64,000 nt of DNA from Escherichia coli (GTDB lineage Bacteria > Pseudomonadota > Gammaproteobacteria > Enterobacterales > Enterobacteriaceae). The stretch is from the NCBI RefSeq assembly GCF_045037415.1, contig NZ_CP173440.1, one strand, 5' to 3'. The position numbers were made by a program. This document shows, piece after piece, positions 18,001-24,000 of the stretch (positions are counted from its first letter, which is position 1; each line of letters begins with the position of its first letter).

Positions 18001-21000
18001 TGAATCTTTTACAACCAAATTTTCTTGTTATTTTACATCTGTGACACGATAGTGTTTTCTCTTCAATTTTTAGACGGCTTTTTAATTCATGGATGCCCTC
18101 CCTCCTGGAGAGTAAGCATTGTAGAATGATTTGTTCTTTTTTTGTTAGTTGTGGGTAATGATTTCCAATCCGGCTAACATTTTTCTTTAAGTATGCATAA
18201 TATAGCTCTTCAATGTTTTTTTTAAATTTCCTTGCATGTTGACATAGATGTCATAATCACACCCTTTAGGATAAAACTTCTCCCCCCCCCCCGAAATGTC
18301 AAGCCACATCCATTGACTTATCATATTTAATGTTTTCCTTAACATTTTATAACCATCCCATTTCCCTGAATAAAAAATCCGGCTATCAACCAATACTCTT
18401 ATATTTCTTTTCTGCTTAATAACTATTGGTTTATCCATCGAGCCTTCATACGTAATATAAACCAGAGGTAGTCCAGTTAACTGCTTTAGGCCGAAATAAA
18501 AATAATAATCATCAGTTAACACTAATGTAACATCCTTATTGCACATAAAGTAAATATATTTTTCCATTGAAACACCAGTTTCATTATCTAATGATGCCTC
18601 CAGTAATTTATCTATTCAATTATAAATGTATTTCTTTTTAAAGCAACATAATACCATTTTACATGAAACATAATGTTTACAGTTTCATGATGAATTATTA
18701 TTCATTTTATGTGCTTAATAAGGTTTGTGTTTGTGTTTGCATGGTAGTAACAAATTGATTTTACTTTGAAAAAATAAATAAAGCATTTCCCTGTGTGATT
18801 AAGAATTCATAAAAAAGAATTGGGTATTTGTTTATTTAGGAATTATTTTAATAATACCCTCTTTTGAAATAATTATCACGATAATTTTATTAAAAACAAC
18901 AATACCCTTGGGGATTAGATTAATCTTACCCACCAATAGTGGACACAGGACTAAGTGAGTAAACTCTCAACCAGAGGTGACTCATGACAAAACCAGTATC
19001 AATCAGCAAGAAGCCCCGTAAACAACATACGCCTGAATTTCGTAACGAAGCCCTGAAACTCGCTGAACGCATCGGTGTGGCCGCCGCAGCCCGTGAACTC
19101 AACCTGTACGAATCTCAGCTTTATGCCTGGCGCAGTAAACAGCAGCAACAAATGAGTTCGTCAGAGCGCGAAAGCGAACTGGCCGCTGAAAATGTCCGCC
19201 TTAAACGACAACTGGCGGAGCAGGCTGAGGAACTGGCCATCCTCCAAAAGGCCGCGACATACTTCGCGAAGCGCCTGAATTTCAGTATCTTTAAGCTTTC
19301 CCCCGCTCGTCATTCCGTAACCCGGGCGAGCAGATTGACGGCAGCTTCCGGCTGAATGATGACTTTTACCTGTTGGAAGCTAAGTGGCATCAGAACAGAA
19401 CGCCAGCGGCAGATTTGCACGTATTCGAAGGAAAACTCAGCACCAAGGCAAAGTGGGCCCGGGGCGTGTTCATCAGATGGATGGGGTTTACTGATGAAGG
19501 TCTGACGGCCTTCGGGAAAGGAAAACGGGTGATCTGTGTCAGCGGTTATGATCTTTACCATTCACTCAGTCATGGTATCGCTCTGCCCGACCTTCTGGAC
19601 GCAAAACTCCGACACGCAGCGGAAACAGGGGAACCTTATGCCCAGTTCGACAGGCTTTACACTCTTAAGGGCATAATAAGCGGCACGCCGAAATAACCTG
19701 CATGGTAATTCAAGAAATTACCCTGCAGAGAGCGGCTTTCTTCACCCAGTCTTCCAGCACCAGACCCGGCACCCGCTCAAACTCTCTCACATTGTTCGTC
19801 ACTAGGACGGCGCCGGCCGCGATAGCGTGCCCAGCAATGGCCGTGTCGTTCGGGCCGATCGGCGTCCCGGCGAGGCGCAGCGCCACCCGGATGTCCGTCG
19901 TGGCGTCCACCGCGGCCCGGTCCCAGGGCAGGATGGCATCGAGGCGCGCGCAGAACGCGTCGACCAGCTGAATATGGCGCGGCGAGGCCTTCGGGCCGGT
20001 GGCGCCGAAGCGCATCTCGGCATACGTCACGGCCGAGACCACGATGCGATCACCGCGCAGCACCGCCTGTTCCAGGCGCTTCAGCACCGCTGCCGGCTGC
20101 TCGCGCATGATGAACGAGCAGATGTTAGTGTCGAGCATCCAGGTTTTCTTCATGGCTCAAAGCGTCCTTCATCGCTGACCACATCCTCACGCTCCGCCAT
20201 AAAGTCCGGAGCGGCCCTGTCCAGCTGCGCGAACGAGCCCCAGGTCGGCCGGACGGGACGCAGAATGATGCTGTCCCCTTCCCGGACGATCTCCAGCTCG
20301 CTGACGCCGTCAAAATCCAGGTCCCGGGGCAGACGGATGGCGCGGTTATTGCCGTTTTTAAATATCGAAACTGTGCGCATGGATGTTCCTCCAACTGATC
20401 ATGCATGATGTGTGAGTGCATATGTGCAGTATATGCCTGCCAGATTGGTTTGTATAGGTGTCGCATATGCAGATGACTGGCATATGCGTATGTCTGCCCT
20501 ATGCAGATGCGCGGAATATGGATATGCTGTGCATATCCTGTTTTCTCATTTCTCCACCGCAGATCCGAAAAATACCACAGCTGGAGGTGGCTGTTTGAAC
20601 CTGCGATTCAGTGAGATAACAGGAACTGACGGCCGGTCAGCGGGTAAACGCCTTCAGAAAAAGTCACCCTGGGCGAGAAAATGGAAGTGGGGAAAATGGC
20701 ATGAAGGAATTAAATAACCAATTAAAATCAGATAAATAGTGGGTTTTCGTGCCTTGAATCGGGCGAAATTTAATGTTTTCGGAAGTGAGAGGTTGCCTGA
20801 TAATGGCATCAGGCAGCTGCCGACCGGTGATATGGTGATTTACAATAATGCCGGACAGTACCTGATTTGCGCGATCTATTAAACCTGGCACCGGGCTGAC
20901 AGTCTTTAATTGAGCGACCTGCAGGCCTCTATATAGTTTTATCCCTCGTCCGGCGTCATACCGGAGCCACTGATACAGGATGTCCTGATGCACTTTTATG

Positions 21001-24000
21001 TTGATGAAACCGGCCATACCGGACCGAACCTTTTTGACAGCACTCAGCCGATACTGTCCTACGGCGTGCTGTCCTCACCCGATGATCTCGATACTGTCGC
21101 GGAGCCTGCCCTCGCTGCGCTGCGTAAAAAAATGGGGGTGGTGCGACTGCACGCCGCCGAACTGGGTATGCACCGCCTGGATAACGTCATCGATACGTTA
21201 CTGGTTCTGCAGAAAAAGCACCGTATCCGCTTTGATATCTGGCAGGTGGTCAAACGCGATCACGCCATCATTTCCTTCTTCGATCAGGTGTTTGACCAGG
21301 GGATGAATCCGGTGGTGCCCTGGACGGCCTACTGGACCCCGCTTCGCTATCCCCTGCTGATAAATCTGGCCCGGCTGTTTGATGATGAGCTAGCGGAAAA
21401 AGCCTGGCGCGCCCGTCTGGAAGCCCACGATGGCCGGTCGGCGGCGTTGTTGGGGGAAGTCTGCAGCGTACTGCTTTCACGTGTCGGGATGCTGGGCGAT
21501 CCCCGTTTCATTGAAATTGTGACTGATGCGCTGTCGTGGGCAATGGCCCACTTTGATGAACTCAGCTACAACTGCAAAACCAATAAAGAAAAACTGCAGA
21601 TCATGCCAAACATGATTGGCTTTCAGTCCGTGCTTCATGGGATCTGCCACCGGCTAGGCGCTCCCAACCGCAAGGCCCGCATCATTGTTGATCAGCAATC
21701 GCAGTTCAACACCACCCAGCGGGAGTTGAGCGTATTTTATCGTCAGATTCGCGCTCAGCCATGGGAGCTGGGGCCAGGTCTGCCGGTGATGGACATGAAA
21801 AACATGCCAGAGCAACCGCTGGTCTTCCAGTCTGGTACGCAGAGCGCCGGACTGGAACTGGTTGATCTCTATCTGTGGATCTTCAAACGCTTTATGGAAG
21901 GTAAAGAACTAACCCGGCCGCTGACACGCCTGGTTTATACCAACCGGCATACCTCTATCACCTCCAGCGTGTCACTGGACGCGATCGGCAAACAGTTTAA
22001 AGCGTTCATGGAGACCCTGCCGGAGCCAACGGCGGACATGTTGCAAAAAGGGCGTGAACTTCAGGCCCGGGAAGAAGCCCGCCGTCTGCAGCACCGGGTT
22101 CCCGGTTTCACTAGCATCTGACCGGCGGGTAGCACGATGGAAAATCAGGAGCACCTGACGCTGATCCACTCGCTGATCAAAACCCACGCCTTCAACGGTT
22201 ATACCCTAGTCAGCACGAAGTACTGGCAGACGCCCTCGGTCAGTGACATTTCCGTGGTCCGGGGGCTGATCCCCCTGACTGACCTGGAGCTGGCCCACCG
22301 GCTGGCGGTGGACCCACGAACTATCCGCAAATGGAAATCCGGTCAGACACAGATGGTGTTCACCACCTGGTGCTGTCTGTGCTGGCTGGCCGGGCTGGGC
22401 ATGCCGCTGGATAACGAAATCAGCGACTGAAGACGCGACGGTAGATACGGCGGAAAATATACCGGCGGTAATATCGCCAGCTGCATGTCCAGATATAGGG
22501 AAGCTCGTCAAAGTGGGTTAAGAACCAGGTGAGGCTCCGGTACGCTACGACAACGGCCCAGATGAACTTACCGATGGCGATGAGGGTGAGGATGACAGTA
22601 AATACTGCTGCGATAAATGTAGACATAGTGTTCTCCTTTATGTCCGGGTTGATGTGCAGGTATTTACTGTTGACGAGTGGACTTAAAGGCCGCTTTTCCG
22701 CAAAAAGTGAAAATAAATTCGTTTTTCGCCTTTTATTGCCGTTATGTATTGAATAAGACAGAACCTTTGTTGATTACGCATTAATGCCGTTTTTGCAATA
22801 ATTTTTCACTTTATTTCTTATTTTGTTCGCAATGTCTCTGTTTCGTTCCTCAGATCCGAAAAAAGGTAGTTCCGGATCTCAGTAAAATCGTATGAATTTT
22901 GAGTTGTCTCCACTCCTTCCCTTTTTCAAAATGTTATCTATAACTGGCTGAGGAACTTCACTGCTGCGGAGGCTAATTTGGGCGTAAAAATTACAGGTAT
23001 AGATAAATTGCAGAAACAATTGAAAGAAGTTGAGGAAGCGGCTGAAACCCTTAACGGTAGTTATCCGGTAAGTTTTGATGCAAACGATCCTGTCAGCATT
23101 GAAACTGCGATTCAGGAAGCGTACAGCATGTTGGAGGAGCGAGCCTCACGGTATGCCGCTAATCCGATGATTAGTCCCATGATCGAGGCCATGAAAGAGG
23201 ATTTGCGTCAGCAAATTCTGGATAGTGCCGAACAGCAAAGACAGGAGAACGGGCAGGATGGCAATTGACATTTTTCAGTCACTCAAAAATTGTGTGTATG
23301 ATTTGCAGCGTGCTGATGCACAGAACTATCAGCAACCACTGAAACAACTGGCCCGGCTCCTGAACGACGGTAATCTACAGGCTGTTAACGAACGCCTGAC
23401 ATGTGATGTCGATCTTGACGCCTTTCTGGCGAAAAGTCATGAAACCGAATCCAGTATGGCCGGCTCCGCCATCCTGCAGTGGCCTGAAGAACCGCGTGAA
23501 ATTTTAGGCCTGAAGCTTTTGTTAATCAGGAAAATGTCCGTTAACGATAATTTCGCATTCAATTTTTGCCACACGTTTTTCTATGACCGAAAAATTATTG
23601 AATCTGTCCGTAAGTTCACATCCTCGTTACTGGTAACTTTTGTTCGCGACTACCAGCTGTATGTTGAGAATGAATCCGATCCTGATCCGGTAGTAATACG
23701 TCAGGTCTCGCGCAAAATTTTTATTGTTCACGGCCATGATAATGATGCCCTTCAGTCTGTTGCCCGCTTTATATCCCGGATAGGGCTGGAGGAAATCATT
23801 CTCTCTGAACGTCCTGATGGCTCAAGGACTGTAATCGAGAAATTTGAAGCGGAGTCAGGAGATGTCAGCTTTGCCATAGTGCTGATGACACCCGACGACA
23901 GTGGAAATGCCCTGGCATCTGAAAACACACGACTGCGTGCACGCCAGAATGTCCTGTATGAACTGGGATATTTCGCGGGTAAGCTTGGGCGCGGGAAAGT

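What the first reader, a model, noticed from the sequence alone, without database searches (positions are those of the whole stretch)
20988..22430. DUF3800-like protein with a tightly linked small HTH gene
The 377-aa protein opens with MHFYVDETGHTG, the YxDExG motif I associate with DUF3800. It is followed 15 nt later by a 97-aa ORF with an AlpA/excisionase-like HTH, so the two are probably co-transcribed. The pair sits directly beside vapBC at the edge of the accessory island. I cannot assign it to a named defence system from memory.
Basis: partly seen in the sequence, partly recalled or inferred. Interest (0 to 1): 0.55.

Follow-up and report, generated by a model that had tools for sequence, protein, structure and literature searches.

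The report
DUF3800 nuclease cassette with KorC-like repressor
On a Klebsiella virulence plasmid, a gene for an RNase H-like nuclease (probably an anti-phage or anti-plasmid weapon) lies just upstream of a small KorC-type repressor gene; the pairing is real and was already noted by comparative genomics in 2013, but it is a loose, swappable arrangement, not a new two-gene system.

Summary
The window is a pLVPK/pK2044-type Klebsiella virulence plasmid.

- **The 97-aa protein** is not AlpA- or excisionase-like. It is a KorC-family XRE-type repressor, 35% identical to the KorC of IncP plasmid R751 (E 3e-11).
- **The linkage is real but facultative.**
  - The same korC-like gene follows DUF4238 or a third, unrelated protein in other plasmids and ICEs.
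  - The DUF3800 gene often occurs without it: in common E. coli IncF plasmids, and in prophage sites beside Gabija, PARIS, AbiZ or a Dam-type methylase.
- **The constant partner of korC-like** is a convergent 68-aa membrane-protein gene. Its promoter region carries a palindrome built like the IncP KorC operators.
- **Prior art:** Anantharaman et al. (2013) predicted "NamA" RNase H-fold toxins linked to KorC-like HTH genes, so this is a member of a known, uncharacterised kind.

I read it as a stand-alone candidate defence nuclease co-transcribed with a kil/kor-like module. No function has been tested.

The parts
20988..22121 (+). Gene for a 377-aa DUF3800 ('NamA-like') RNase H-fold protein. The core has D6/E7 on strand 1, plus D103, D235 and D293. 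Two helical inserts (about 34-77 and 112-223) and a C-terminal helical extension (310-367) are added to the core.
22122..22136 (+). 15-nt spacer between the two genes. No terminator-like site lies here, so the genes are probably co-transcribed.
   Evidence: Sequence; terminator scan.
22137..22430 (+). Gene for a 97-aa KorC-family XRE-type HTH repressor. The N-terminal ~35 residues are variable; the HTH (residues 48-69) and the following helix are highly conserved.
   Evidence: 35% identity over 69 aa to R751 KorC, E 3e-11. Alignment A1. Most homologues are named korC or YiaG by NCBI or JGI. AF2 pLDDT 83; every top Foldseek hit is an XRE-type HTH.
22420..22626 (-). Convergent gene for a 68-aa protein with an N-terminal hydrophobic helix and an Arg-rich tail. 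It overlaps the 3' end of korC-like by 11 nt. An ORF was found next to every intact korC-like gene examined; in L008 it is interrupted by a stop codon.
   Evidence: ORF. Orthologues at about 40-90% identity in every locus. Annotated in RefSeq. No Pfam, NCBIfam or PHROG family.
22678..22692 (.). Palindrome TGGACTTAAAGGCCG (family consensus CGGCCTTTAAGGCCG), about 50 nt upstream of the 68-aa gene and 12 nt upstream of an invariant TAAATAC. It is a candidate KorC-type operator.
   Evidence: Conserved in all 10 loci aligned. Its architecture (GGMC-W5-GKCC) matches the R751 KorC operators TAGGACAAAATGTCCTA. That pattern occurs once in the 64-kb window (0.07 expected) and, in R751, only at the two operators. 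The pattern was derived after the fact.
20910..20937 (+). Promoter-like site TTGAGC-16-TATAGT, ending 51 nt upstream of the DUF3800 start codon. By eye it resembles the TGAGCC-N18-TATAGT site upstream of HEPN cassettes in other plasmids.
   Evidence: Consensus scan. Comparison by eye with L005, L004 and L020. Not tested experimentally.
22851..22879 (+). Intact copy of a conserved 'cassette leader' inverted repeat (C)AGATCCGAAAA-N8-CCGGATCT. A partial copy lies at 20560-20572 and a degenerate one at about 20872-20900. Its function is unknown.
   Evidence: The exact 13-mer occurs twice. There are 1-4 copies per related locus. Most are on the + strand, roughly 90-150 nt upstream of a rightward cassette; two reverse-strand copies and some copies further upstream also occur.

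Best explanation
The locus joins two separable modules that are read as one transcript.

**Module 1: the DUF3800 gene.** It encodes a predicted metal-dependent RNase H-fold nuclease, closest in fold to RNase HII. The gene behaves as an autonomous single-gene accessory cassette of plasmids, ICEs and P2-like prophages. Its most likely role is as a defence or inter-element conflict nuclease acting on invading or hybrid nucleic acid.

**Module 2: the korC-like gene plus the convergent 68-aa membrane-protein gene.** KorC-like is a dimeric XRE-type repressor. Like KorC of IncP plasmids, it probably holds a potentially harmful 'kil'-type gene silent. Here that would be the 68-aa gene, through the palindrome at 22678-22692.

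korC-like has no evident promoter of its own. It is always fused to the 3' end of whichever ~340-377-aa cargo gene lies upstream, so it is expressed from that cassette's promoter (here 20910-20937).

**Shown:** the fold, the conserved catalytic residues, homology to KorC, the modularity, and the genomic contexts.
**Inferred:** nuclease activity, the defence role, repression of the 68-aa gene, and co-transcription.
For: **DUF3800 module**
- Pfam match over the full model.
- 576 family representatives, mostly full length.
- Invariant D6, E7, D103, D235 and D293.

**DUF3800 is autonomous**
- It lacks korC-like in L004 and L020, the common E. coli and Salmonella IncF layout HEPN-257aa-DUF3800.
- It also lacks korC-like in the loci and in 13 viral contigs.

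**Defence-type neighbours**
- In the window: PifA (2.3e-240) and the TIR-like PDC-S35 (7.6e-66).
- PARIS AriA/AriB in L028 and AbiZ in L015.
- Gabija GajA/GajB plus an HNH protein in L040, PDC-M66A/B in L034, and Hp1/Hp2 in L043.

**KorC-like**
- E 3e-11 to R751 KorC, aligned across the whole domain; XRE fold.
- R751 has the same layout: a 401-aa gene, a 16-nt gap, then korC.

**Modularity**
- The upstream partner is DUF3800, DUF4238 or a 340-aa family. hhalign finds no relation between these three.
- KorC-like proteins linked to DUF3800 do not group together. The pLVPK protein is 61% identical to L002's, but 69-70% identical to those linked to DUF4238 or the 340-aa family.

**korC/68-aa module**
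- The 68-aa ORF was found in every locus, interrupted by a stop codon in L008.
- The palindrome is conserved in all 10 aligned loci and has IncP operator architecture.

**Prior prediction**
- PMC3710099 makes the same prediction independently.
Against: - There are no experimental data for any step.
- PADLOC has no model that matches the DUF3800 protein, and no isolated phage genome encodes a close relative.
- The defence role rests on guilt by association in about ten contexts, not on a genome-wide enrichment statistic.
- The operator pattern was defined after seeing both sets of sites. No such palindrome lies upstream of DUF3800, so autoregulation of the operon is not supported.
- The promoter call is a consensus match, at a frequency no higher than chance for the region.
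- The tight spacing or overlap between korC-like and three different upstream genes could reflect a functional coupling that I am under-weighting.
Confidence: 0.6

Rival explanations
1. An obligate two-gene toxin-antitoxin or abortive-infection pair. DUF3800 would be an RNase toxin, neutralised by direct binding of the KorC-like protein through its variable N-terminus, which would also autoregulate the operon.
For: - The spacing is tight (15 nt), or the genes overlap by 1-4 nt with the other partners.
- Toxin-first order with a small HTH protein resembles higBA.
- The best Foldseek hit is the HigA2 antitoxin, which also combines an N-terminal extension with a C-terminal XRE domain.
- PMC3710099 calls NamA proteins toxins.
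Against: - DUF3800 occurs without korC-like in the common IncF layout and in most other contexts.
- korC-like serves three unrelated upstream proteins.
- Its N-terminal 38 residues do not track the partner. Within the DUF3800-linked set they are 36% identical, against 47% to proteins linked to DUF4238 or the 340-aa family.
- Its bona fide homologue KorC acts as a transcriptional repressor.
Confidence: 0.12
2. A plasmid housekeeping enzyme rather than a weapon: an RNase HII-like activity that removes RNA primers or R-loops to help replication or establishment of the plasmid.
For: - The fold is closest to RNase HII/H2.
- The gene lies in the maintenance region next to vapBC and, in relatives, next to ccdAB-resD-repE.
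- P1 RlfA, annotated as DUF3800, sits beside the lytic replicon and is annotated 'possibly associated with lytic replication'.
Against: - The position is variable. The gene is replaced by DUF4238 or another gene, or is present only as partial matches without an annotated gene in many plasmids.
- The family sits at prophage accessory sites beside Gabija, PARIS, AbiZ and methylases, not beside replication genes.
- P1 RlfA is only marginally similar to this subfamily (hhalign E 0.033).
Confidence: 0.15
3. KorC-like is a DNA-targeting subunit of the nuclease. It would bind DNA and recruit DUF3800 to RNA-DNA hybrids at specific sites, as hinted in PMC3710099.
For: - The two genes are adjacent.
Against: - The same facultative and promiscuous linkage applies as above.
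- The only conserved KorC-type palindrome lies in the promoter of the 68-aa gene, as expected for a repressor.
Confidence: 0.08
4. A decaying, non-functional remnant carried along on the virulence plasmid.
For: - Many related plasmids hold only partial matches to the gene with no annotated feature.
- The neighbouring pifA is frameshifted in this window.
Against: - Both ORFs are full length with every family-invariant residue.
- They are 100% conserved in about 595 records.
Confidence: 0.03

Closest known systems
'NamA-domain' RNase H-fold proteins with KorC-like HTH and pEK499_p136 HEPN neighbours (Anantharaman et al. 2013, PMC3710099)
   Same: [quoted passage not shown]
- Neighbourhood with a KorC-like HTH gene, 'with or without' a HEPN gene.
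- The pEK499_p136 HEPN gene lies upstream of DUF3800 in related IncF plasmids.
- P1 RlfA, listed in that paper's NamA row, is annotated DUF3800.
   Different: The window has no HEPN gene. The paper did not describe the 68-aa gene, the operator-like palindrome or the swap with DUF4238.
IncP-1 kilC operon klcA-klcB-korC and the kil-kor regulon (R751, RK2)
   Same: - The small protein is a true KorC homologue (E 3e-11).
- korC is the last gene, 16 nt after a ~400-aa gene.
- A palindrome of the GGNC-N5-GNCC type lies in a target promoter.
- KorC represses genes that harm the host.
   Different: KlcB is unrelated to DUF3800. There is no klcA here. The IncP operator sequence itself is absent from the window. 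The putative target here is a convergent 68-aa membrane-protein gene.
Retron type VII (RT + ncRNA + DUF3800 effector)
   Same: A DUF3800 domain with an N-terminal DE motif, modelled on RNase H2.
   Different: No reverse transcriptase gene is annotated within about 9 kb and no Rfam RNA is found. PADLOC returns no retron model for this protein.
TPR-DUF3800 accessory proteins of Cas12a2/Cas12a3 and type VI-F CRISPR loci
   Same: An RNase H-fold DUF3800 domain in an immune-system context.
   Different: There is no TPR domain, no cas genes and no CRISPR array. The subfamily architecture is different.
DUF3800-associated structured RNAs (DUF3800-I to XI, drum, skipping-rope; Weinberg et al. 2017)
   Same: They belong to the same Pfam family of neighbouring genes.
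   Different: None of these motifs occurs in the window, even at a permissive threshold. The upstream 400 nt shows no fold signal (z about -0.9).
DUF4238 single-gene anti-T7 defence from the P2 hotspot (Rousset et al. 2022)
   Same: It occupies the same slot immediately upstream of korC-like in other plasmids and ICEs, and it is a single-gene cargo of similar size.
   Different: It is unrelated in sequence (hhalign probability 0.1%).
RNase HII / RNase H2A
   Same: It is the best structural match. The acidic pair sits on the first strand, like the DEAG motif of RNase HII (the motif is recalled from memory).
   Different: Sequence identity is only 9%. DUF3800 has two large helical inserts and a C-terminal helical domain. 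It is carried on mobile elements rather than being a housekeeping gene.

Membership tests
Pfam DUF3800 (PF12686) | Match to the family HMM | tested here: met
   E 1.5e-5, 26.2 bits, model positions 1-148 of 149. The match is weak, but PF12686 is precomputed for most close homologues and RefSeq uses the name.
Pfam DUF3800 (PF12686) | N-terminal DE motif and C-terminal QxxD motif | tested here: met
   D6-E7 and D293 are invariant in A2. In this protein the Q of the family consensus LQxxD is E (LELVD).
Pfam DUF3800 (PF12686) | RNase H-like fold | tested here: met
KorC family (IncP global repressor) | Sequence homology to an experimentally defined KorC | tested here: met
   35% identity over 69 aa to R751 KorC, E 3e-11. 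Seventeen columns are invariant, including in R751 KorC.
KorC family (IncP global repressor) | HTH DNA-binding fold | tested here: met
   The model has pLDDT 83. All top Foldseek hits are XRE/Cro-type HTH proteins (probabilities 0.85-0.99, though E-values are 0.2-1).
KorC family (IncP global repressor) | Palindromic operator in the promoters it represses | tested here: inconclusive
   A conserved palindrome with the same half-site and spacing logic as the R751 operators lies upstream of the 68-aa gene. The pattern was defined after the fact and binding has not been tested.
KorC family (IncP global repressor) | Repressor activity on kil-type genes | not testable with these tools
   Needs EMSA or reporter assays.
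   Pfam gives only MerR at E 0.44. NCBIfam VC1465 and BldC score far below their cut-offs. The fold hits are XRE-type.
Retron type VII | Adjacent reverse transcriptase and msr/msd RNA | tested here: not met
   No RT gene in the annotated 20 kb, no Rfam hit and no PADLOC retron model.
Type II toxin-antitoxin pair | Obligate co-occurrence and co-variation of toxin and antitoxin | tested here: not met
   Each gene occurs without the other, and the identity matrix does not follow the partner.
NamA domain (Anantharaman 2013) | [quoted passage not shown] | tested here: met
   Inserts at about 34-77 and 112-223 in the model. Invariant acidic residues. Description.
NamA domain (Anantharaman 2013) | Sequence similarity to Photorhabdus NamA | not tested
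   The NamA sequence and paper were not available. The link is indirect, through P1 RlfA being annotated DUF3800. hhalign of RlfA against this subfamily gives only E 0.033.
Known anti-phage systems (PADLOC-DB v2) | Match to any system model | tested here: not met
   Only BrxL at E 0.038 for the DUF3800 protein, and nothing for the small protein.

The most novel reading that the evidence does not exclude
korC-like plus the convergent 68-aa membrane-protein gene may be a portable 'dead-man switch' chassis.

- Any of several unrelated cargo genes (DUF3800, DUF4238 or the 340-aa family) drives transcription of a KorC-type repressor.
- That repressor keeps a small membrane toxin silent.
- If transcription of the cargo operon collapses, through phage-induced shut-off or loss of the element, the repressor decays and the toxin gene fires.

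This would be a kil/kor-derived abortive-infection or addiction circuit with swappable front ends. It would sit in a cassette array whose units are marked by a conserved AGATCCG...CGGATCT leader.
Probability: 0.15. Interest if true: 0.7.

Novelty: new member of a known kind. Interest (0 to 1): 0.4.

Why it matters
**Prevalence.** The gene pair is fixed in the hypervirulent Klebsiella plasmid lineage, with about 595 identical records. Relatives are found in about 28% of complete E. coli genomes, almost always on plasmids. This is therefore a very common plasmid gene that nobody has tested.

**If DUF3800 is a defence nuclease.**
- It would add a single-gene system to the defence catalogue.
- It would give a handle on the DUF3800 domains attached to retrons and to Cas12a2/a3.

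**The korC-like/68-aa module.** Together with the repeated cassette leaders, it suggests that the region between vapBC and ccdAB/pif in IncF-type plasmids is an organised, regulated hotspot for conflict genes. That bears on plasmid host range, on phage therapy against Klebsiella, and on plasmid-plasmid competition.

**Limits.** The basic association was predicted in 2013 and nothing here is mechanistically surprising, so the value lies mainly in providing a well-defined experimental target.

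Tried and rejected
- **KlcB as a DUF3800 homologue.** The R751 layout klcB-korC is the same, but BLASTP and Pfam show no relation.
- **IncP KorC operator in the window.** Neither the RK2-type nor the R751-type 17-mer occurs within 3 mismatches near the locus.
- **DUF3800-associated ncRNAs.**
  - Rfam found nothing at the gathering thresholds over 64 kb, and nothing relevant at E<=10 over 5 kb.
  - The upstream 402 nt folds no better than shuffled sequence on either strand.
- **The AGATCCG...CGGATCT leader as the KorC-like operator.** Rejected as unsupported.
  - The element also occurs in plasmids whose fetched loci lack korC-like (L004, L020).
  - Changes in its 3' arm are not compensated, so it is not a selected hairpin either.
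- **Homology among the three upstream partner families.** hhalign gives probabilities of 1.5% or less.
- **Solved structures by sequence.** None for either protein.
- **Isolated phage genomes.** No DUF3800 relative was found, and only three weak hits for the small protein.
- **Species-wide census of korC-like.** The genome-contig scan returned only 6 loci because the peptide patterns were narrow.
- **The NamA paper.** It could not be retrieved.
- **The 68-aa protein.** It has no match in Pfam, NCBIfam or PHROGs.

Full report
**1. What is there**

The window is a pLVPK/pK2044-type Klebsiella pneumoniae virulence plasmid. The 2-kb region around the finding is 100% identical to NC_005249 and NC_006625, and at least 99% identical in 595 plasmid records.

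- 20988-22121 (+), 377 aa, beginning MHFYVDETGHTG.
- A 15-nt spacer.
- 22137-22430 (+), 97 aa.

To the left lie vapB and vapC (19710-20380, -), then an IS fragment, rmpA2 and iutA. RefSeq annotates the first ORF as 'DUF3800 domain-containing protein' and the second as hypothetical. Prokka-type records call the second one korC.

**2. The 377-aa protein**

Pfam DUF3800 matches weakly (E 1.5e-5) but over the whole model. PADLOC and NCBIfam have nothing, and PHROGs gives only one weak match to a family of unknown function.

An exhaustive search of 1.84 billion cluster representatives found 576 relatives. Most are 350-400 aa and align from end to end. In an alignment of 42 of them, at 23-47% identity to this protein, D6, E7, G9, H55, K89, D103, N107, D235 and D293 are invariant.

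The AlphaFold model is very confident (pLDDT 95.6, pTM 0.92). Its layout is:
- an RNase H-type core (strands 2-8, 22-30, 81-88, 231-235 and 279-281);
- two large helical inserts (about 34-77 and 112-223);
- a C-terminal helical extension.

I conclude that this is an intact and probably catalytically active RNase H-fold enzyme. The activity itself is inferred.

**3. The 97-aa protein**

Profile libraries give only sub-threshold HTH hits. Even so, the protein is a clear homologue of the experimentally known repressor KorC of IncP-1 plasmid R751. Identity is 35% over 69 residues, with pairwise E 3e-11, and 17 columns are invariant across 28 family members including R751 KorC. NCBI names most relatives korC, and JGI calls them YiaG-type regulators.

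The model (pLDDT 83) matches only XRE/Cro-type HTH proteins: HigA2, ImmR, Aca1, HipB and the controller protein C.Kpn2I. The reading 'AlpA/excisionase-like' is therefore wrong.

R751 has the same layout: klcB (401 aa), a 16-nt gap, then korC (85 aa). KlcB, however, is unrelated to DUF3800.

**4. Is the pair a unit?**

Partly.

*Evidence that the pair travels together:*
- It is conserved at about 73-76% DNA identity in IncF plasmids of E. coli, Cronobacter and Buttiauxella.
- In 915 plasmid records, one match covers at least 80% of the pair.

*Evidence that the linkage is facultative:*
- **korC-like has other upstream partners.** Homologues at 54-70% identity lie directly after, or overlap, a 375-aa DUF4238 protein or a 340-345-aa protein with no known domain. 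hhalign finds no relation among the three partner families.
- **The KorC-like proteins linked to DUF3800 do not group together.** The pLVPK protein is 61% identical to the one in L002, but 69-70% identical to those linked to DUF4238 or the 340-aa family. The variable N-terminal 38 residues behave the same way.
- **DUF3800 often lacks korC-like.**
  - In the commonest E. coli and Salmonella IncF layout it follows a pEK499_p136-type HEPN gene and a 257-aa gene, with no korC-like downstream.
  - The gene before it ends in a hairpin, and another hairpin follows DUF3800. These were seen by eye and did not meet the scan's criteria.
  - More distant family members at 25-50% identity show no conserved partner at all.

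**5. What the contexts say about function**

The DUF3800 subfamily sits in accessory slots of mobile elements next to known or candidate defence genes:
- In the window: the TIR-like PDC-S35 (7.6e-66) and PifA (2.3e-240).
- In P2-like prophages: next to tail gene D, with AbiZ (L015), with PARIS AriA/AriB and a Dam-type methylase (L028), or with a type II methylase immediately upstream (L036, L037).
- Elsewhere: Gabija GajA/GajB plus an HNH protein (L040), PDC-M66A/B (L034), Hp1/Hp2 (L043), and an SNF2 / Lon_C / ADP-ribosylglycohydrolase / UvrD cluster (L016).

DUF4238, the alternative occupant of the same slot, is a proven single-gene anti-T7 defence. DUF3800 domains are also the effector of type VII retrons and accessories of Cas12a2/a3 and type VI-F systems.

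No reverse transcriptase, cas gene or DUF3800-associated RNA motif is present here.

A stand-alone conflict nuclease is therefore the best-supported reading. It rests on association, not on a test.

**6. The constant partner of korC-like**

Next to every intact korC-like gene examined, a 65-68-aa ORF runs convergently and overlaps the 3' end of korC-like by about 11 nt. In L008 it is interrupted by a stop codon. In the window it lies at 22420-22626 (-). It has an N-terminal hydrophobic helix and an Arg-rich tail, and it keeps its reading frame at about 40% identity. No family matches it.

Its upstream region contains two highly conserved blocks: the palindrome CGGCCTTTAAGGCCG (in the window TGGACTTAAAGGCCG, 22678-22692) and, 12 nt further on, TAAATAC.

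The R751 KorC operators, which I located upstream of klcA and kleA, read TAGGACAAAATGTCCTA. Both kinds of site have the form GG(A/C)C, five A/T bases, then G(G/T)CC. That pattern occurs:
- once in the 64-kb window, against 0.07 expected;
- in R751, only at the two operators;
- at the 68-aa gene promoter in most fetched korC-like loci (L002, L007 and L025 differ from it by one base), with stray matches at L012:574 and inside the 257-aa gene of the korC-less loci L004 and L020.

I defined the pattern after seeing both sets of sites, so this is a lead and not a proof. It does suggest that korC-like and the 68-aa gene form a kor/kil-type pair, and that korC-like is simply expressed from whatever cargo gene lies upstream.

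**7. Other regulatory features**
- A promoter-like site (TTGAGC-16-TATAGT, 20910-20937) precedes DUF3800. No terminator-like site separates the two genes.
- A conserved leader of about 100 nt, ending in AGATCCG-N14-CGGA(TCT/AAT), precedes most rightward cassettes in this variable region across plasmids and ICEs.
  - The window has an intact copy (22851-22879), a truncated one (20560-20572) and a degenerate one (about 20872-20900).
  - The element also occurs in loci that lack korC-like, so I cannot assign it a binding protein.

**8. Prior knowledge**

Anantharaman, Makarova, Burroughs, Koonin and Aravind (2013) described a 'NamA' domain. [quoted passage not shown] Their table lists P1 RlfA in the NamA row, and P1 RlfA is annotated DUF3800. 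A direct comparison of RlfA with this subfamily is only marginal.

The core of the finding is therefore already in the literature as a prediction. I found no experimental work on this subfamily.

**9. Verdict**

The locus is best described as a DUF3800/NamA-type nuclease cassette co-transcribed with a KorC-type repressor, and that repressor probably controls the neighbouring small membrane-protein gene.

The locus is common. Relatives occur in 1541 of 5426 complete E. coli genomes, with 1698 matches on plasmids against 45 on chromosomes. It is untested and moderately interesting, but it is not a new kind of system.

Noticed in passing
window 22420-22626 (-) and 22678-22692: A conserved 68-aa membrane-protein gene runs convergent to korC-like and overlaps it. 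Its promoter region holds a palindrome with the same architecture as the IncP KorC operators. This may be a kil/kor-type pair.
   Followed up: partly
window 20560-20572, ~20872-20900, 22851-22879; L002:2483, 5892, 7847 and equivalents: A repeated 'cassette leader' of about 100 nt: TAATCC..CAACAATCC..GCAATAATCC, a pyrimidine tract, then AGATCCG-N14-CGGA. It lies upstream of most rightward cassettes in the vapBC-ccdAB variable region of IncF-type plasmids and ICEs. Homology between plasmids breaks at this element. The protein that binds it, and its role, are unknown.
   Followed up: partly
window 24206-26432 (-): A pifA homologue (PADLOC PifA, E 2.3e-240) carries a 1-nt insertion relative to pLVPK (2227 vs 2226 nt). 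In this window it is split into 624-aa and 175-aa ORFs, either a pseudogene or a sequencing error.
   Followed up: yes
window 22978-23268 (+) and 23225-24157 (+): A 96-aa ORF overlaps a 310-aa TIR-like protein that matches the PADLOC candidate system PDC-S35 (7.6e-66) and, weakly, Cap12/PycTIR. It is preceded by an intact leader repeat.
   Followed up: partly
window 20381-20540: Several GCATATG/CATATGC-type inverted repeats lie between vapB and the first leader repeat. They are probably VapB operators. Similar arrays occur next to vapB in L002, L004 and L020.
   Followed up: no
window 20586-20987 (RefSeq hypothetical CDS 20664-20993, -): The roughly 400 nt upstream of DUF3800 are unique to pLVPK-type plasmids. 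They show no RNA-structure signal. The annotated minus-strand ORF overlaps the DUF3800 start codon and is probably spurious.
   Followed up: partly
L028:4127-6131, L036 and L037:5084-7122, L017:304-2040, L039: In P2-like prophages and some metagenomic contigs, the DUF3800 subfamily gene is immediately preceded or followed by a DNA methyltransferase. In three loci this is a Dam-type enzyme with a 2-3-nt gap or in an operon-like arrangement. This hints at a restriction-modification-like pairing that is absent from the plasmid copies.
   Followed up: partly
L005:1749-4840, L012:3751-6843, L020:5548-6834: A recurrent operon of pEK499_p136 HEPN, a 257-259-aa protein and, in some loci, a 530-aa protein lies upstream of DUF4238 or DUF3800. 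None of these proteins matches PADLOC or NCBIfam.
   Followed up: no
window 26434-27159 (-): A 241-aa ORF lies directly upstream of pifA and is not in the PLSDB gene table. No PADLOC match.
   Followed up: no
L024 (contig labelled Lachnospiraceae MAG): This contig carries an Enterobacterial IncF-type DUF3800-korC-68aa block that is near-identical in protein sequence to L002. The bin is probably contaminated.
   Followed up: no
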